DNA from: a virus
Lineage: Duplodnaviria; Caudoviricetes
DNA: 64,000 nucleotides
Direction: 5' to 3' (one strand)
Virus record (IMG/VR): IMGVR_UViG_3300033149_002250
Span: 1,355 to 65,354 of that record
Positions 54,457-60,923 of the stretch are shown here, in pieces; the stretch's first letter is position 1, and the number at the start of each line of letters is the position of its first letter. The notes under the pieces are model-generated. The model had not been told where the DNA came from and searched no databases. It saw only the letters and a program-made list of their open reading frames with translations. The position numbers and the translations under genes were made by a program.

Positions 54457-55269
54457 ATGACTGTTCGCAACGGCACTCCGCTGTGCTACATTTACGTGCG
54501 GGTTTCCCACGCCAAGGGCTTTGAGTCCGTAGAGACGCAGGCCAAGGAGGACAAGAGCTTGCAAGCCCAGGCCGCTCGCTGTCTGGCCTATTACGAGAGC
54601 CGGGTAAAACACAAGGAGGTCGAGCTATACCCGGAGGTAATCGTTGAGCCACGTGTCTCCGCCAGAGAGACTCCGCTACGGAAGCGTCCAAAGGGCAAAT
54701 GGCTCAACTCCGTTCTGCGCCACGGCGACCACGTGATCTTCGCTTACTTCGACAGGTCTGTTCGGCAGCTACGAGATTGGGCTAACCTGCTACCAGAGTG
54801 GCAGGCCAGGGGAATCAACATCCACTTTGTTGATCTCGACATCGACCTCTCCACCCCCCAGGGGCAGATGATCGCCAACATCATGGCCTCCGTCGCCCAA
54901 TGGGAAAGCGACCAGCGCAGCGAACGATGCAAAGCCGTGGCTGCCTGGCTCAAAGCAAACGGCCGATGCTACGGCCCGACGCGACGGCCAGGCTACAAGG
55001 TGATCGGGCCGAAGGGGAATCGCCGGGTGGTTCACGACCACTCGCAGTTCCCGATCCTGCGGAAGATTGAGAGACTTCGCCATCAGGGTCTCAGCTGGGA
55101 GAAGATCAGCCAGATCGTGGAGAGCCAAGAGTGCAAAAAGCGAGGCGCGCAGTTCAGCCCCAGTGCCTTCTTTAAGCGCACTTGGACTCCGTGGCGGTGT
55201 CAAGCCGCGTACCGCAACTGGCAGGAGATCAAACGGGAGTTGGGCATCGAGGAGGATGCCGCCAGCTAA
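54457..55269 (+). CDS. Serine recombinase (resolvase/invertase family)
   Basis: YVRVS catalytic motif, SLQAQ, VSA, RPKG, FDRSVR and DLSTPQGQM..IMASVAQWE. Confidence 0.9.
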   Translation: MTVRNGTPLCYIYVRVSHAKGFESVETQAKEDKSLQAQAARCLAYYESRVKHKEVELYPEVIVEPRVSARETPLRKRPKGKWLNSVLRHGDHVIFAYFDRSVRQLRDWANLLPEWQARGINIHFVDLDIDLSTPQGQMIANIMASVAQWESDQRSERCKAVAAWLKANGRCYGPTRRPGYKVIGPKGNRRVVHDHSQFPILRKIERLRHQGLSWEKISQIVESQECKKRGAQFSPSAFFKRTWTPWRCQAAYRNWQEIKRELGIEEDAAS

Positions 55270-56561: not shown

Positions 56562-57245
56562 CTACCATTCCCCTGCGTCGTCTGGGTGCCGCTGCCCATT
56601 GCTGGCGCCAGGTGTGAAGGGCTTCGGCGGCGCGATGCACCCTTGGTATCCATTCCCTATTGAGTACGAAACGGCCTGCGGAAATCTGGACCCGTGCCGT
56701 CGCAACAGGATGCCGATCTGCTTCTCCGGCCATTTGTACGCCTTGTGAATCCTGCGGCGGTACTCCATCCACAACGCGATAGCTTCCCTGATCGCCTCGT
56801 TGTCGCAGCCCGCCGGGAAATCTATCTCGTCCCATCTGATCTCCACGGCCCGCCCCGCATCCTGTGCTTTCTGCTTGGTCTTGATACCCGGGTTGCCGCC
56901 CTTTCGCCCCGCTGTTGCACATCGCCGCCGGCGCTTCTCCCGTTTGCCAATCTCTGTGCTGTAGAATGTCCCGTCCTCTGCTTGCTGCACCATACCCACG
57001 CCTTGCAGTTCCGCCATGGCGGCCCTGATGTCGTCCAGCGAGGACTGGAGCATGGCCGCCAGTCTTACGGTCGTAATGCGTCTGCCGTCAGGCAGCAGCA
57101 GTTTGCCTGGCTCCGGGCTGTCCCGGAAGATGCACAGCAGGTCAATCCAGAGCCCCCTGGCCGCCAGAGACACGTTGCGAAGCGATGACATTTCCAGCCA
57201 CTCCCGGTGACGAATGCCGAGCGTACCTGCCACCAGCCTGCTCAT
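56562..57245 (-). CDS. Phage replication initiator-like protein
   Basis: SLAARGLWIDLLC...ELQGVG winged-helix, GRKGGNP and C-terminal WMEYR..SIGNGYQG; upstream of the DnaC-like gene. Confidence 0.7.
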   Translation of the reverse strand: MSRLVAGTLGIRHREWLEMSSLRNVSLAARGLWIDLLCIFRDSPEPGKLLLPDGRRITTVRLAAMLQSSLDDIRAAMAELQGVGMVQQAEDGTFYSTEIGKREKRRRRCATAGRKGGNPGIKTKQKAQDAGRAVEIRWDEIDFPAGCDNEAIREAIALWMEYRRRIHKAYKWPEKQIGILLRRHGSRFPQAVSYSIGNGYQGCIAPPKPFTPGASNGQRHPDDAGEW

Positions 57246-57275
57246 CTGCCGTGCCTCCGTGCGCCTCCCTGCTCA

Positions 57276-58679
57276 TTATAACAGGTCGCACACGATCTGC
57301 TCATCGTCGCTGGCCTCCGCCGTTAGAATCACGACGCCGGTGCTCTTGGCAACCTCGGCCACCTCCTTTCGGTTTACCGGATCGAGCGATTCCCACGCTT
57401 CCTGGGGGACCGCCACCAGTCCGCCCTTGCCCACTTGGGTGGCCGCGATCTCCAAGGCAATGCGCCACCTTTCCCCAGGCGACAACTCTGCAAAGGGCTC
57501 TGCCCCCCGATCCGTGTCGCAGACCAGCACGCCATCCTCGACGCGCAGCTTGGACGTGACCTTCGCCACCCAGTCAGAGAGGATGCTGTCGGTCGCCTTG
57601 GCGGACCCCCGCAGCATTTCTGCCTGACGCAGCCTGTCGTCTGCGGCAGAGAGCAGCTTGTCCGCTACCTCCAGGTTGTGCCGGGCCTCCTCGCGGCTGA
57701 TGGCAAGCTCGTGTTCGCGCTTGGCTCTTTCGACCCGCTCGGTGGCCGCGGCAAGCTCCGCGTCGGTCGGACCTTCCGGGATGTCGCCAAGCACCTGCTC
57801 CAGTTCAGCCATCTCCCTTTCGGCCTGTTCTGCCGCGTGTAGGTCGGACTCAAGCTCAACAAGCCGTGCGCGCTCAGCCTTTAGGCTGGCTTCGAGTTGG
57901 GCGATTCGCTCGCGGCTCTCGACCACCCGTTGGCGAATGTCCACAGCAGCCTTCGAGGTCTGTTTCAGGGAGTCCAATCGTCGGGCTGCCTCCTCTGCTT
58001 GGGCGGCACGCTTTTCGGCCTGCTGTCTTTTGACCTCTAGCTCGCGGCGGGCGAGCAGTGCGTTTGAGAGTTCCTGCTCGGCCTCCTTGGGAGAGGGGCC
58101 GCTCCCGATCTCCTCCGGCAGCCTTTCCTTCACTGCGACGGCTTGGGCTTTGAAGTCGCGGGCCGCCGTCTCGTGCTGCCTGGCCGCGGCCTCTAGCTCC
58201 CGCTTGAGTCTGGCTGCCATCGACACCAGATCGCCGTGCCTGGCAGCAATCGGCAGCAGTTCCTCCAAGTCGTACCCTGGCGGCACTATCGGCTCAAACT
58301 CCTTGGCTTCGCCGGCAGCCCCGGCCAACTGGAGCAGAGCCTTGACTCGCACCCTGTTTGCGGCCGACTCGTCTTTCAGCCCAGGATCGACCAGCTGAGT
58401 GATGTCCAGTTTCCCTTCAAGCGTCTGGACCTCGGCTTCCCCGGTGCGCCGCATGCTGCGGCCGATGGTAAGCCTTACACCCACGCCCTCCACCTTCCCT
58501 TTTTTGGCGTGATCTCGCACTGGTGGCCGACCCCGCTTGGAGACAGCCGCTTCGACTGCCTCCAGCGCATGGCTTTTGCCGACCCCGTTACGGCCCCGCA
58601 ACACGACCACGCCGGCGTCGGGAAGGGGGATCATCAGGTGTTCAACTGGCCCGACGTTTTCTAGGTTGATTTCTCGCAT
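57276..58679 (-). CDS. Rad50/SbcC/SMC-like ABC ATPase with coiled-coil
   Basis: Walker A GRNGVGKS, a long coiled-coil, signature LSPGE and QEAWESLD (degenerate Walker B / D-loop). Confidence 0.8.
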   Translation of the reverse strand: MREINLENVGPVEHLMIPLPDAGVVVLRGRNGVGKSHALEAVEAAVSKRGRPPVRDHAKKGKVEGVGVRLTIGRSMRRTGEAEVQTLEGKLDITQLVDPGLKDESAANRVRVKALLQLAGAAGEAKEFEPIVPPGYDLEELLPIAARHGDLVSMAARLKRELEAAARQHETAARDFKAQAVAVKERLPEEIGSGPSPKEAEQELSNALLARRELEVKRQQAEKRAAQAEEAARRLDSLKQTSKAAVDIRQRVVESRERIAQLEASLKAERARLVELESDLHAAEQAEREMAELEQVLGDIPEGPTDAELAAATERVERAKREHELAISREEARHNLEVADKLLSAADDRLRQAEMLRGSAKATDSILSDWVAKVTSKLRVEDGVLVCDTDRGAEPFAELSPGERWRIALEIAATQVGKGGLVAVPQEAWESLDPVNRKEVAEVAKSTGVVILTAEASDDEQIVCDLL

Positions 58680-58689
58680 CGTTTCTCTC

Positions 58690-58858
58690 CTTGCGCTCGC
58701 TCGGGAGCCAGCCGTGGGGCGCATCCCCGTCGCCGGCCGGCCTCGGTCAACCAAACCTGCGCTCCCCTGGGAGCGTGCCGGTGAGCCCACCTGCCGCACA
58801 CGTCGTGCATCGCCCTTGTGCCTGCGCTCCCCTGGGAGCGTGCCGGTGAGCCCACCTG
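58690..58858 (-). CRISPR. CRISPR-like mini-array: two identical 38-bp repeats, one degenerate terminal repeat and two spacers (27 and 28 bp)
   Basis: Repeat CAGGTGGGCTCACCGGCACGCTCCCAGGGGAGCGCAGG at 58821-58858 and 58756-58793, with a 25/38 degenerate copy at 58690-58727. Internal hairpin CGCTCCC/GGGAGCG; period 65-66 bp. Confidence 0.7.
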
Positions 58859-58859
58859 G

Positions 58860-59040
58860 GCAAGACTTAACTCCTTTCTGTCACTGAGGTTGCGACAGCT
58901 CCGCAGCCCCTCAAGCCGGCACTCCCGGAAGGCCCGGGGGCTGTCCCGTGTGGGAATATCCCCGGCTCTTCGCAGCGTTCCTGGACCGTGCCGCCGCGCT
59001 GGGCATTGCGGCCGTGTCCGGCTTCGGCCTGGCAGTGGCC
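58860..59040 (-). ncRNA. Candidate tracrRNA/scaffold region with an anti-repeat at 58910-58926
   Basis: Minus-strand GGGA-GUGCCGG-CU-UGAG can pair with repeat CUCA-CCGGCAC-GC-UCCC (15 bp, two 2-nt bulges). Boundaries are unknown. Confidence 0.5.
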
Positions 59041-59041
59041 G

Positions 59042-59722
59042 TTATAGCACCTTTTCTAATTCGGCACGAAGCTCATGCAGTACCCGAATTGTTTCGTCGC
59101 TGTCGTCCAGCATGCCAGTACGGACAAGCAGAATCAACTGCCGTGCATGAAAGGTAGCCGGCATTCCCGACAGCTTGGGCACCGCTTCGATCTGCTCGTC
59201 CGTAAGGACCGCGCCAGCCAAATGGTCCAAGCCACGTTTCAGCGGTACTGGCGTGCCGTTCTTCGCCACGGCGACCCTGCCTTCGGCCAGTGCCTTTATG
59301 TCGCTTGGCCGCATACACAGCGCCAAGGCGACGCTCTTGACCGCCACGCGGTACTTCTTCGCCAGGATTAGGCACCGCGTCTTGTCCTGCTTCGTAAGAG
59401 ACCTGCCGTGGGCTGCATTGAGCCGCATCGCATCCAGCAGCAACTCGCGGTCACTGGGATACTCGCGCAGCTCAACGGCAACGATGGGGTTGTCACCAAA
59501 CTCTCGCTTGTAGGCTCGATAGCGATGAAAGCCATCGACAATTCTCTTGCTCCTTGCCTCAGCAATAATCGGCGGCAGGCTGGCGCCCCCGCGGATCGCA
59601 TCGCACAAATTGGCCACGTGCTGACTGTCCACAGTCTGCCTGGGATACAAGTCCCAGTCAAGGACCAGTTCACTCAGCGGCAGCTGGGCAAGCCTTACTT
59701 TCGGCGACGCGATCTTCGCCAT
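59042..59722 (-). CDS. ParB/Srx N-terminal (CTPase-like) domain protein
   Basis: LYPR, LPPII, IVDGFHRYRA (GxxR patch) and LNAAHG.SLT..DK, followed by a possible HTH. Confidence 0.85.
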   Translation of the reverse strand: MAKIASPKVRLAQLPLSELVLDWDLYPRQTVDSQHVANLCDAIRGGASLPPIIAEARSKRIVDGFHRYRAYKREFGDNPIVAVELREYPSDRELLLDAMRLNAAHGRSLTKQDKTRCLILAKKYRVAVKSVALALCMRPSDIKALAEGRVAVAKNGTPVPLKRGLDHLAGAVLTDEQIEAVPKLSGMPATFHARQLILLVRTGMLDDSDETIRVLHELRAELEKVL

Positions 59723-60923
59723 TGGGCAGCTCCTTTCCTGTGATGAAGGACAACCCTTGGCCGTGGGCCTTGTGCTGTAACTGGGTCACGAAGGTGTGCC
59801 AGGGAAAGCCATTCCGGCGGGGCTCGGTGTCCAGCCAGACGATCCCAGCGAATCCGTTACGCTTGGCATAGCCGACCACTTGGGCCGACAATTGGTGTGC
59901 CGCCGTGTCCATGCGGCGGCGGTACTTCTCGGCAAGCGACTTGAACCGGCTGCGCAGCTTGCCGCGGACCTCCATCTTGGCGTCCTCGCTCAGTCGCCGC
60001 AGCCGCCGCTGGTGCTCACGCTGCCACCTGGCAACGTGATCGGCATTGATGGTCCAGAGCTTATTCTGTTTGGCGTTCACCGCCTGTAGCAGACAATCCT
60101 CGCCAGGCATTACGAACAACAAGCCCCGGCTGCCGTCCGGCTGCCCATCACGTGGAAGCCACAGACACATCTTGCAGAGCAACCTGCCGACCTTGCCGAT
60201 ACCTGGCCGGTGGTCGCCGCTGGAGCCCTTTTGTTCATACAAAGCCACCTCGGCCCGCAATGCTTCGCCTGCCAACAGTTTCTCGAAGGCAGCTAGCTGT
60301 CTGCGGTAATCGTGGCCGCCACGCAGCCTCAGATGCACCTGCCGCCCGGCCAGCCGGATACGCACCACCGGCCGCCCCTGTTCGTCCCGCAAAGCCCGCC
60401 AGTCCTTCGCGCGAATGGGAAGCACCGCCCGGTCGTAGCGGAAGTTCGGCACAGACTCGTTGCCGAGCCAGATGACGTTGTACCGCCGTTTGCGCCAGCG
60501 GCCCTCAACTGCGTGCAACACGGCACAAACCGTGGACGGCTCCAGTTCCGGGCACAACTTGCGGGCTTCGGGGTAAAGGTACACAGCCGGGGCCTTCGGC
60601 AGTTTTTCCATTTCCGGTGTGCGCACCACGTCTGCCTTCGCCAGCTGAGTTATGGCCCAGTTGCTCAACCGGACGGTCGCCCGCCAAGCGGCCTTTAGCC
60701 AGTCGCGCAGCTCCGACCACTCGCAGTCCGTCGGCCCCGCCACCGGAATAGTTACGGCCCGCAACACGTAGCGGTCCTTCCAGCAGGTGGCACACATCAC
60801 ATCGCCAGACGGCAGGCGATGCCAGCCGGGCGGCAGCCGCTTCGCCTGGGTCGTTTTGCCGCAGCCCGCGCACACGTACTCACGCTCCTCCGCTGCCATG
60901 GCATTGCCCTCCTGCTCACTCAT
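59670..60923 (-). CDS. Nuclease-dead TnpB/Cas12f-like RNA-guided DNA-binding protein with an N-terminal Zn finger
   Basis: C-terminal HQLSAQVVGYAKRNGFAGIVW and FPWHTFVTQLQHKAHGQGLSF align by eye with the TnpB/Cas12 RuvC region. The RuvC-I Asp position reads LFVMPG; the TNB Zn finger and RuvC-III are absent. Confidence 0.65.
   Translation of the reverse strand: MSEQEGNAMAAEEREYVCAGCGKTTQAKRLPPGWHRLPSGDVMCATCWKDRYVLRAVTIPVAGPTDCEWSELRDWLKAAWRATVRLSNWAITQLAKADVVRTPEMEKLPKAPAVYLYPEARKLCPELEPSTVCAVLHAVEGRWRKRRYNVIWLGNESVPNFRYDRAVLPIRAKDWRALRDEQGRPVVRIRLAGRQVHLRLRGGHDYRRQLAAFEKLLAGEALRAEVALYEQKGSSGDHRPGIGKVGRLLCKMCLWLPRDGQPDGSRGLLFVMPGEDCLLQAVNAKQNKLWTINADHVARWQREHQRRLRRLSEDAKMEVRGKLRSRFKSLAEKYRRRMDTAAHQLSAQVVGYAKRNGFAGIVWLDTEPRRNGFPWHTFVTQLQHKAHGQGLSFITGKELPNGEDRVAESKACPAAAE

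What the first reader, a model, noticed from the sequence alone, without database searches (positions are those of the whole stretch)
58690..58858. Two-spacer CRISPR mini-array with no adaptation genes
Seen: two identical 38-bp hairpin-forming repeats and a distal degenerate repeat (25/38). The polarity matches minus-strand transcription. Spacers in RNA sense are CACAAGGGCGATGCACGACGTGTGCGG and TTTGGTTGACCGAGGCCGGCCGGCGACG. The degenerate repeat runs into the RBS of the SMC-like gene. Standard CRISPR finders may miss an array this short.
Basis: partly seen in the sequence, partly recalled or inferred. Interest (0 to 1): 0.8.

Follow-up and report, generated by a model that had tools for sequence, protein, structure and literature searches.

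The report
Phage dead-Cas12f guide-RNA mini-array
The two repeats and their degenerate third copy are a real, very short CRISPR-type guide array that belongs to a miniature Cas12f-like protein encoded just upstream in this phage, a protein that has lost its DNA-cutting site and so most likely binds chosen DNA without cutting it.

Summary
Observation confirmed. Window 58756-58793 and 58821-58858 are identical 38-nt repeats. 58690-58727 is an in-phase 25/38 copy, the only such near-match in the 65-kb genome. The two spacers are unrelated.

Interpretation supported, but the array is not an orphan. The 417-aa ORF at 59670-60923 (-) belongs to a large unannotated family. Its profile hits Cas12f in PDB (E 1e-11). 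Its AF2 model (pLDDT 90.8) superposes on AsCas12f (Foldseek E 3e-18). No member has an acidic residue at the RuvC-I position, and the protein stops before RuvC-III. Between it and the array lie a ParB-like gene and a conserved structured RNA. A covariance model built only from distant relatives finds that RNA at 58939-59047 (E 2e-13). An anti-repeat follows it.

All ten related phage loci have the same gene and scaffold. Eight have regular repeat arrays on the same strand. The closest relative (77% aa identity) has a related repeat and six different spacers. Cas1, Cas2, Cas4 and TnpA are absent. No spacer target was found. A second scaffold and array lies at 5217-5571.

Most likely this is the guide array of a phage RNA-guided DNA-binding (silencing) system. 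This scan has noted such systems on other DNA. Papers mention array-linked dCas12f only briefly.

The parts
58821..58858 (-). Repeat 1, first in the direction of transcription. 38 nt as seen; probably 36 nt by homology with L006.
58794..58820 (-). Spacer 1 (27 nt).
   Evidence: No other copy in the window at up to 3 mismatches. Best non-self match in the genome is 18/27, equal to the shuffle level.
58756..58793 (-). Repeat 2, identical to repeat 1.
58728..58755 (-). Spacer 2 (28 nt).
   Evidence: Best non-self match is 19/28, equal to the shuffle level.
58690..58727 (-). Degenerate terminal repeat (25/38). Its last base overlaps the RBS of the next gene.
   Evidence: the only position with 24 or more of 38 matches among 130,634 tested.
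58859..58901 (-). Linker between the anti-repeat and the first repeat. It holds a hairpin that L006 has at the same place with a different sequence.
   Evidence: My reading of the alignment; not tested statistically.
58902..58938 (-). Anti-repeat. It can pair with nearly the whole repeat (27 bp by RNAduplex).
   Evidence: The homologous L006 segment pairs at -43.1 kcal/mol, against -29.0 +/- 3.6 for shuffles (0 of 500 reach it). The window's duplex (-37.5) is not better than shuffles (240 of 500). Two compensatory changes between the window and L006 were read by hand.
58939..59047 (-). Conserved structured scaffold RNA (tracrRNA-like or omega-RNA-like core). It starts at the stop codon of the ParB-like gene.
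   Evidence: Covariance model R1 was built from L007-L015 only. It hits here over its full length with 56.2 bits, E 2.3e-13. RNAalifold on 11 loci gives 19 pairs, 16 of them with compensatory changes. The first 110 nt are 105/112 identical to L006.
59042..59722 (-). ParB-like (DGxHR-type ParB/Srx N-terminal domain) gene, inserted between the effector and the scaffold. It overlaps the effector gene by 53 nt.
   Evidence: phrog_1033 E 5.4e-10. Pfam ParB_N scores only E 0.0077, below the cut-off. Homologues sit beside the effector in only 2 of 10 related loci, L006 and L007.
59670..60923 (-). Nuclease-dead, C-terminally truncated Cas12f-like effector with an N-terminal CxxC...CxxC zinc finger (417 aa; the public gene call starts 8 codons later).
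57276..58679 (-). AAA_23 / SbcC-like ATPase gene directly downstream. It is probably co-transcribed but is not a conserved part of the system.
   Evidence: It is not found after the arrays of relatives. Its own relatives L003 and L004 have no repeats and no effector.
5462..5571 (-). Second copy of the scaffold RNA.
   Evidence: R1 hit with 34.9 bits, E 1.5e-7 over 219 kb searched; E 6.8e-10 on a local search.
5217..5413 (-). Second array. Four 32-nt repeats (5382-5413, 5313-5344, 5265-5296, 5217-5248) with spacers of 37, 16 and 16 nt. It shares only the 3' end (GCGCAGG type) with the first array.

Best explanation
The three repeats and two spacers are the guide array of a phage-encoded, type-V-like RNA-guided system.

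Shown:
- The effector at 59670-60923 has a Cas12f fold.
- It lacks the RuvC-I acidic residue, has Leu at the RuvC-II position, and ends before RuvC-III and the TNB zinc ribbon.
- It is under strong purifying selection.
- A conserved structured scaffold RNA sits immediately upstream of the array on the same strand, followed by an anti-repeat.
- The order gene, scaffold, array recurs in related phages with different spacers.

Inferred:
- The minus strand is transcribed through the scaffold and array, possibly from the effector/ParB-like operon.
- The scaffold/anti-repeat pairs with each repeat.
- The duplex is trimmed, by host RNases or otherwise, to give guides made of the repeat's 3' part plus about 20-30 nt of spacer.
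- The dead Cas12f-like protein loads these guides and binds complementary DNA next to a short TAM without cutting it.
- Binding blocks transcription or replication of the target, as in CRISPRi.
- Spacers do not match the phage's own genome and differ between relatives, so the targets are probably host genes or rival mobile elements.
For: Array
- The array is real and more than chance would give.

Effector
- A profile of 52 family members hits Cas12f chains in PDB: 9nzq_A at 1.4e-11, 9i8y_A at 9e-9 over profile positions 61-397, and the 'nuclease-deactivated Cas12f' 9n9c at 1.5e-5.
- The AF2 model has pLDDT 90.8 and pTM 0.84.
- The top Foldseek hits are all Cas12f: 8j12_A at E 3.2e-18 with TMq 0.59 over 386 columns, and dCas12f 9n9c at 6.3e-16. 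TnpB 8h1j is weaker at 2e-9.
- NCBIfam guided_TnpB scores E 5.7e-6, below its cut-off.
- At the column aligned to the RuvC-I Asp, 0 of 52 members have D or E (R in 29; M in this protein). At the RuvC-II position this protein has L.
- Only 33-46 residues follow the FPW motif in 7 of 9 sampled members.
- dN/dS against L006 is 0.08 over 389 codons.
- The family is large: 875 clusters at 50% identity with E<=1e-3, and 344 with E<=1e-30.

Scaffold RNA
- It is present in 11 of 11 loci aligned, with 16 of 19 predicted pairs showing compensatory change.
- The leave-out covariance model finds it in the window at E 2.3e-13 and in L006 at E 7.5e-13. It finds nothing at E<=1 in the control locus L003.

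Arrays in relatives
- 8 of 10 related loci have 2-7 repeats of 33-40 nt with a 64-75 nt period, directly after the scaffold and on the effector's strand. The other two have runs of short repeats there.
- L006 has 6 good repeats plus 1 degenerate repeat and 6 spacers unlike the window's.
- Its terminal repeats decay at the same distal end as in the window.

Anti-repeat
- It is significant in L006 (0 of 500 shuffles reach it) and has the same architecture at the homologous place in the window.

Other
- There is no Cas1, Cas2, Cas4 or Y1 transposase in the complete genome.
- One effector gene serves two scaffold-array modules.
Against: - No protospacer was found for any spacer. The window's two spacers were compared with its own genome. 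22 spacers of six phages were compared with all six whole records at 80% identity or more, and their 5'-anchored seeds were compared with shuffles. Cultured phages and plasmids gave nothing convincing: best E 0.04-1, and no hit spans a whole spacer.
- No TAM is known.
- There is no expression or processing evidence of any kind.
- No sigma-70-type promoter was found in 58300-59400.
- The window's own repeat:anti-repeat duplex is no better than shuffles of this G+C-rich sequence (240 of 500).
- The repeat hairpin is no better than shuffles in the transcribed sense.
- 'Nuclease-dead' rests on alignment and on the truncation, not on an assay. Most family members keep D at the RuvC-II position (32 of 52), and a conserved Asp lies 4 residues after the RuvC-I column (31 of 52). 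A rearranged active site is therefore not formally excluded for the family.
- With only two spacers and a decayed third repeat, this particular array could be in decline.
Confidence: 0.78

Rival explanations
1. The array is a decaying remnant. The effector-scaffold system works, perhaps through the second module at 5217-5571 or a single guide, but this two-spacer array is no longer used.
For: There are only two spacers and a 25/38 terminal repeat, whereas the closest relative keeps six spacers. A second scaffold-array module exists.
Against: The two full repeats are 100% identical. The adjacent scaffold is 105/112 identical to that of a phage whose effector is only 77% identical, which argues for selection on this module. 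Degenerate terminal repeats are normal in active arrays (general knowledge).
Confidence: 0.1
2. It is a host-dependent mini-array or RNA decoy. The phage array mimics a host CRISPR repeat and either borrows host Cas proteins against rival phages or soaks them up (RNA anti-CRISPR).
Against: The exact 23-nt repeat core and a degenerate two-copy pattern gave 0 hits in one genome for each of 185,579 species. There were 0 related hits in metagenome contigs; the single hit, L005, is an unrelated 41-nt tandem repeat. There were 0 hits in viral contigs. These scans need exact matches, so a diverged host repeat could be missed. A cognate effector and a tracr-like RNA are encoded in cis and co-vary with the repeat.
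Confidence: 0.04
3. The repeats are protein-binding sites: parS-like sites for the upstream ParB-like protein, origin iterons, or operators of the downstream ATPase / replisome-organiser / DnaC module.
For: The repeats lie between a ParB-like gene and a replication module. This was my leading guess.
Against: In relatives the repeat arrays follow the Cas12f-like gene and its scaffold RNA whatever the flanking genes. ParB-like homologues are present in only 2 of 10 loci, and the ATPase follows the array in 0 of 10. ATPase relatives without the effector have no repeats. Repeat sequences change completely between loci but keep a similar length (24-40 nt), a mostly 64-75 nt period and a shared 3' end.
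Confidence: 0.03

Closest known systems
CRISPR-array-associated nuclease-dead Cas12f cluster noted by Hoffmann et al., Nature 2026 (PMC13472631; passages and Extended Data legends read)
   Same: Both have a dCas12f with a C-terminal truncation removing part of RuvC, encoded near CRISPR arrays, with a covarying guide-RNA scaffold in the intergenic region upstream of the array. Transcriptional repression is proposed for that cluster.
   Different: That cluster is described in one sentence and one figure, for bacterial loci whose guides sometimes target efflux promoters. Here the system is in a complete phage genome, the effector has an N-terminal zinc finger, a ParB-like gene sits inside the locus, there are two scaffold-array modules, and no targets are known. 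I could not tell whether this family is that cluster, because figures and supplements are not available.
Type V-F CRISPR-Cas12f nucleases (AsCas12f 8J12/7WJU/8DZJ, OsCas12f 9NZQ, SpCas12f1 9I8Y)
   Same: They are the best structural and profile matches. They share the miniature size and the tracrRNA with an anti-repeat lying between the cas gene and the array.
   Different: Sequence identity is 13-16%. The RuvC-I Asp is absent, RuvC-II is Leu here, and RuvC-III and the TNB domain are missing. There is no cas1, cas2 or cas4.
dCas12f-sigmaE RNA-guided transcription activators (PMC13472631; PDB 9N9C)
   Same: Both are nuclease-dead, truncated Cas12f derivatives that bind DNA by an RNA guide. 9n9c is a strong structural match (E 6e-16).
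   Different: No sigma-factor gene was found among the 9 neighbouring ORFs scanned. Those systems use single chimeric guides and no tracrRNA. Here there is a repeat-spacer array plus an anti-repeat.
TldR, TnpB-like nuclease-dead repressors, some prophage-borne (10.1101/2023.11.30.569447 and PMC13622181; passages read)
   Same: Both are truncated, dead RuvC proteins carried by (pro)phages, and both are likely to work by steric repression.
   Different: TldRs derive from TnpB and use one fixed guide at the 3' end of an omega-type RNA next to the gene. This protein is closer to Cas12f than to TnpB and has multi-spacer arrays that differ between relatives.
Inactivated type V / V-U subtypes with adaptation-less CRISPR-like arrays, and Cas12m (Altae-Tran et al., PNAS 2023, PMC10691335; passages read)
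   Same: The census reports Cas12f and V-U branches with altered or lost catalytic sites, CRISPR associations 'largely lacking the adaptation module', and silencing without cleavage by Cas12m.
   Different: No phage-borne family with this architecture is described in the passages I read.

Membership tests
CRISPR array | Two or more near-identical direct repeats of about 23-55 nt, separated by unique spacers of similar length | tested here: met
   Two identical 38-nt repeats plus one 25/38 copy. The spacers are 27 and 28 nt and are unlike each other.
CRISPR array | Spacer content differs between related genomes while the repeat is kept | tested here: met
   L006 has a related repeat (28 of 38 positions identical, read) and six spacers with only chance-level similarity to the window's. 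Only one close relative was available.
CRISPR array | A linked cas gene | tested here: met
   A Cas12f-like gene ends 0.8 kb upstream on the same strand. The gene-scaffold-array order is kept in 8 of 10 related loci.
CRISPR array | Spacers match foreign protospacers flanked by a PAM | tested here: inconclusive
   No match was found in the own genome, in five related phage records, in INPHARED or in PLSDB. The exact sequence of spacer 1 is absent from IMG/VR. Host genomes could not be searched.
CRISPR array | Transcribed and processed into crRNAs | not testable with these tools
   No RNA run holds the stretch.
Type V-F CRISPR-Cas12f nuclease system | Effector with the Cas12f fold | tested here: met
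   Foldseek E 3.2e-18 and TMq 0.59 to 8j12_A. Profile E 1.4e-11 to 9nzq_A.
Type V-F CRISPR-Cas12f nuclease system | Intact RuvC D-E-D triad and a C-terminal TNB zinc ribbon | tested here: not met
   The RuvC-I column holds no D or E in 0 of 52 members (M here). The RuvC-II position is L here. The protein ends 45 residues after the FPW motif.
Type V-F CRISPR-Cas12f nuclease system | tracrRNA with an anti-repeat | tested here: inconclusive
   The scaffold RNA is strongly supported. The anti-repeat is significant in L006 (0 of 500 shuffles) but not in the window itself (240 of 500).
Type V-F CRISPR-Cas12f nuclease system | Adaptation genes cas1, cas2 and cas4 (usual in V-F1; recalled) | tested here: not met
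   PF01867, PF09827 and PF01930 give 0 matches at E<=1 in the complete genome, and the control genomes respond.
dCas12f-sigmaE systems | Adjacent rpoE (sigma-E) gene with a C-terminal extension | tested here: not met
   No sigma-factor family was found among the 9 neighbouring ORFs scanned with Pfam and PHROGs. The rest of the genome was not scanned for sigma factors.
TldR / IS200-IS605 TnpB-omegaRNA | TnpA or transposon ends, and a single guide at the 3' end of an RNA overlapping the gene's end | tested here: not met
   There is no Y1 transposase in the genome. The scaffold is separated from the gene by a ParB-like gene and is followed by a multi-spacer array.
Cas-less viral mini-array using host Cas | Repeat matches a host CRISPR repeat, and there is no effector in the virus | tested here: not met
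   There were 0 hits for the repeat core in genome contigs (exact patterns only). An effector is present in the phage.
parS / iteron / operator repeats | Repeats travel with the gene of the binding protein | tested here: not met
   A ParB-like gene is present in 2 of 10 related loci with arrays. The ATPase is downstream in 0 of 10.

The most novel reading that the evidence does not exclude
In this clade (window, L006, L007) the dead Cas12f-like protein and the ParB-like protein encoded inside the same locus work together. The guides from the mini-array would deliver a ParB/Srx-type NTPase or nuclease domain to RNA-specified DNA sites, an RNA-programmed substitute for parS, to condense, silence or mark host or rival-phage DNA. 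More broadly, the family would be a widespread phage-specific class of RNA-guided DNA-binding devices whose arrays can shrink to repeats of 8-12 nt.
Probability: 0.1. Interest if true: 0.9.

Novelty: new variant of a known kind. Interest (0 to 1): 0.62.

Why it matters
The finding shows that a two-spacer array, which automatic CRISPR finders would probably skip, marks a complete RNA-guided module in a phage. The module has a dead miniature Cas12f-type protein, a helper RNA and two guide arrays.

The protein family is large (875 clusters at 50% identity). It escapes the Pfam and NCBIfam thresholds. In the ten loci I could fetch it lies in viral contigs.

If these systems silence host genes or rival elements by binding alone, they are a common and so far uncharacterised way for phages to reprogram cells or compete. 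They would also be a source of very compact programmable DNA binders (about 400 aa).

The architecture bears on how guide RNAs evolved between single omega-type RNAs and split tracrRNA/crRNA pairs. Here the scaffold and anti-repeat sit upstream on the same strand. In some relatives the repeats are self-paired hairpins, and in others they are ultra-short.

Tried and rejected
Protein-binding-site reading (parS, iterons, operator). This was my first favourite (stated). I rejected it after the comparative data.

Small ORFs across the array (64 aa at 58661-58855; a 38-aa TTG ORF behind an AAAGGAG, read). There were no Pfam or PHROG hits. The 65/66-nt period puts the repeats in different frames, and the relative has other spacers. 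Rejected.

Rfam scan of 57000-60500 at E<=10. It gave 5 chance-level hits and no CRISPR or tracr family.

Repeat searches:
- Full repeat and 23-nt core: 0 hits in viral contigs, 0 in genome contigs and 0 in metagenome contigs.
- Degenerate two-copy pattern: 0 hits in genomes and 1 in metagenomes (L005), which is an unrelated 41-nt tandem repeat.
- These scans need exact matches.

Spacer targets. Nothing was found.
- A 29/32 match to a Gordonia phage tail gene includes 4 nt of repeat and has E = 1.
- A 24/25 match of part of one L013 spacer to Lentisphaerae phage WC36-1 has E = 0.5.
- I treat both as chance.

RNAduplex of the repeat against the whole scaffold was uninformative, because long loops are allowed and the sequence is G+C-rich. 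I redid it on the 80 nt after the scaffold core.

Single-sequence searches of the effector were negative or sub-threshold. PDB phmmer gave nothing below E 0.83. The best Pfam hit was OrfB_IS605 at E 0.046. Only the family profile and the fold search gave clear answers.

Homodimer prediction of the effector gave no verdict. It is evidence neither for nor against.

Expression. No RNA holder is listed. One DNA run holds a 0.14 share of the sampled words. Laid on the window, it shows a few exact pieces plus an L006-like contig that ends about 83 nt beyond window position 58912, before reaching the array. It is not informative about the array.

Tools and data that were not available:
- Supplements of PMC10691335 and figures of PMC13472631, which may list this family, could not be seen.
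- The claim that no paper describes this phage family rests on searches and on the passages read only.

Full report
1. Observation

The window is bases 1355-65354 of a 65,354-bp viral record with direct terminal repeats, rated 100% complete. I found an exact 89-bp terminal repeat.

At 58756-58793 and 58821-58858 there are two identical 38-nt direct repeats. A third copy at 58690-58727 matches 25/38. Start-to-start spacing is 66 and 65 nt. No other copy exists at up to 3 mismatches, and none is expected by chance.

I slid the repeat over all 130,634 positions of the genome. The 25/38 copy is the only position with 24 or more matches apart from the perfect copies, and it is in phase. The degenerate repeat is therefore real.

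The two spacers (27 and 28 nt) are unrelated. The downstream ATPase gene starts at ATG 58679 behind GGAGAG at 58685-58690, so the degenerate repeat does touch its RBS.

The repeat folds, but in the transcribed sense no better than shuffles (43 of 200).

2. First leads and dead ends

The neighbours on the minus strand are, in order:
- a 417-aa ORF with no family hit;
- a ParB-like ORF;
- the array;
- an AAA_23 ATPase;
- a replisome organiser;
- a DnaC-like loader.

This made binding sites (parS or iterons) a fair guess at first.

Exact scans for the repeat found nothing in viral contigs, in one genome for each of 185,579 species, or in metagenome contigs. The single hit of a degenerate pattern is an unrelated tandem repeat. 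Distant relatives of the ATPase gene have no repeats upstream.

I took that as a lead and tested it.

3. The 417-aa protein is a Cas12f-like protein without a complete RuvC site

On its own the protein gives only sub-threshold hits: OrfB_IS605 at E 0.046 and guided_TnpB at E 5.7e-6. It nevertheless has a large family:
- 99 proteins at E<=1e-3 among the 8000 candidates scored;
- 875 clusters at 50% identity in an exhaustive search, 344 of them at E<=1e-30;
- almost all are about 400 aa long and carry an N-terminal CxxC...CxxC motif.

A profile of 52 members hits Cas12f chains in the PDB: 9nzq_A at 1.4e-11, 9i8y_A at 9e-9 over nearly the full length, and the 'nuclease-deactivated Cas12f' 9n9c at 1.5e-5.

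An AlphaFold2 model built with that alignment has pLDDT 90.8 and pTM 0.84. Its best Foldseek matches are all Cas12f: AsCas12f 8j12_A at E 3.2e-18 with TMq 0.59 over 386 columns, OsCas12f, SpCas12f1, and dCas12f 9n9c at 6.3e-16. TnpB is weaker, at 2e-9.

In the HMM alignments the RuvC-I Asp falls on a column with no acidic residue in any of the 52 members (R in 29; M272 here). The RuvC-II Glu falls on L364 here (D in 32 of 52). The protein ends 45 residues after the FPW motif, before any TNB ribbon or RuvC-III.

dN/dS against the closest relative is 0.08. The gene is therefore maintained by selection, yet it cannot have the canonical active site.

4. A conserved helper RNA and arrays travel with the gene

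Ten viral loci encode relatives of the effector: L006 at 77% identity, and L007-L015 at 34-42%.

In every locus a stretch of about 110 nt follows the gene. In L006 and in the window it follows the ParB-like gene instead. This stretch aligns across all 11 sequences. RNAalifold predicts 19 pairs, 16 of them with compensatory changes.

I built a covariance model from L007-L015 only. It finds:
- the window's copy at 58939-59047 (-), full length, 56.2 bits, E 2.3e-13;
- L006's copy at E 7.5e-13;
- nothing at E<=1 in the control locus L003.

Directly after this scaffold, on the same strand, 8 of 10 loci carry 2-7 repeats of 33-40 nt with a 64-75 nt period. The other two, and parts of L009 and L010, carry long runs of 8-12-nt repeats.

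Repeat sequences differ between loci but share their 3' end. In L007, L008 and L011 the whole repeat is a strong hairpin (z about -5.3 to -6.0).

The flanking genes are not conserved. The ATPase follows the array in 0 of 10 loci, and a ParB-like gene is present in 2 of 10. The repeats therefore belong to the effector and its RNA, not to the replication genes.

L006 has a repeat that is identical to the window's at 28 of 38 positions (read). It has six good copies plus a degenerate one at the distal end, and six spacers of 19-30 nt whose similarity to the window's two is at chance level.

The scaffold core is 105/112 identical between the two phages. That is more conserved than the protein.

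6. Anti-repeat

In the window and in L006 the scaffold core is followed by about 40 nt that can pair with nearly the whole repeat.

For L006 the duplex is -43.1 kcal/mol, against -29.0 +/- 3.6 for shuffles (0 of 500 reach it).

For the window the homologous segment (58902-58938) gives -37.5, which this G+C-rich sequence also reaches when shuffled (240 of 500).

Reading the two duplexes side by side, two of the four differences in the anti-repeat are matched by complementary changes in the repeat. This is my hand count from then on only two sequences, so it is modest evidence.

7. What is absent

The complete genome has no Cas1, Cas2, Cas4 or Y1 transposase, and the control genomes respond to the same searches. 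It has one effector gene only.

No sigma-70-type promoter or intrinsic terminator is seen in 58300-59400. The array may therefore be read from upstream and into the ATPase gene. This is inference.

8. Targets

None was found.
- The window's spacers have no match in its own genome beyond shuffle level.
- 22 spacers from six phages have no match at 80% identity or more in any of the six whole records. The only exception is a duplicated spacer inside the L008 array.
- 5'-anchored seeds do not exceed shuffles.
- Cultured-phage and plasmid collections give nothing convincing.
- Host genomes could not be searched.

The guides thus do not look like self-regulators that act through full-length pairing. 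Host or rival-element targets are the inference left.

9. Mechanism proposed

Shown:
- the anatomy of the locus;
- the Cas12f fold;
- the loss of the catalytic site;
- selection on the gene;
- the conserved RNA;
- co-occurrence of gene, scaffold and array;
- spacer turnover between relatives.

Inferred:
- transcription of the scaffold and array on the minus strand;
- pairing of the anti-repeat with the repeats, followed by trimming;
- loading of the guides on the dead Cas12f-like protein;
- TAM-dependent binding of complementary DNA without cleavage;
- block of transcription or replication of the target.

10. Comparison with what is known

The nearest description is one sentence and an Extended Data figure in Hoffmann et al. 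(Nature 2026, PMC13472631; passages read). They describe a distinct cluster of dCas12f near CRISPR arrays, with covarying guide scaffolds upstream of the arrays.

Altae-Tran et al. (PNAS 2023, PMC10691335; passages read) report Cas12f and V-U branches with lost catalytic sites, and arrays without adaptation modules.

TldRs and dCas12f-sigmaE share the dead, truncated design. They use single guides and have other partner genes.

None of the passages I read, and none of searches, mention a phage family with this architecture or a ParB-like partner. Figures and supplements were not visible.

Within this scan, similar phage dCas12f modules have already been noted on other DNA: 25 notes in at least 20 genomes. 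Some of those have ultra-short repeats like those I saw in L009, L010, L014 and L015.

I therefore class the finding as a new variant of a known kind.

11. Noticed on the way

The same covariance model finds a second scaffold in the window at 5462-5571 (-) (E 1.5e-7). It is followed by four 32-nt repeats with spacers of 37, 16 and 16 nt. That array ends at the start of a small HTH ORF, upstream of a csrA-like gene.

Noticed in passing
window 5217-5571 (-): A second scaffold RNA lies at 5462-5571 (R1 hit, 34.9 bits, E 1.5e-7). It is followed by four 32-nt repeats with spacers of 37, 16 and 16 nt. These repeats share only their 3' end with the repeat of the array under study. The last repeat abuts the RBS and TTG start of a small Xis/AlpA-like HTH ORF. 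My naming of that ORF comes from its sequence and no family search was run. No self-targets were found.
   Followed up: partly
window 4810-5019 (-): A 69-aa ORF whose sequence reads like CsrA (recognised by eye, not searched) lies just downstream of the second array and the HTH ORF. One published TldR clade is csrA-associated, which may be coincidence.
   Followed up: no
L009:7190-7560, L010:7600-8140, L014:7320-8530, L015:7400-8460: In these relatives the scaffold is followed by hundreds of bases in which a motif of 8-12 nt recurs every 15-50 nt. The motif equals the 3' end of the long repeat (for example the GCTTCGG/GCCTCGG type). This looks like guide arrays with ultra-short repeats that no CRISPR finder would call.
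   Followed up: partly
L007:7366-7475, L008:7374-7705, L011:7307-7559: In these loci each 36-37-nt repeat is a near-perfect hairpin on its own (z -5.3 to -6.0), and no separate anti-repeat lies between the scaffold and the array. The window and L006 instead have a separate anti-repeat. The family may therefore hold both fused and split guide designs.
   Followed up: partly
L008:7482-7520 and 7631-7669: Two spacers of one array are identical over 36 of 39 nt. This is a duplicated repeat-spacer unit (149-nt duplication).
   Followed up: no
window 59042-59722 (-); L006:4024-4686; L007:7556-8176: A ParB-like gene with a DGFHR motif sits inside or right after the module in three of eleven loci. In L007 it follows the array instead of preceding the scaffold.
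   Followed up: partly
window 54457-55269 (+): A serine recombinase/invertase (Pfam Resolvase E 8e-24) lies beside the replication module. It may indicate a temperate lifestyle or an invertible segment.
   Followed up: no
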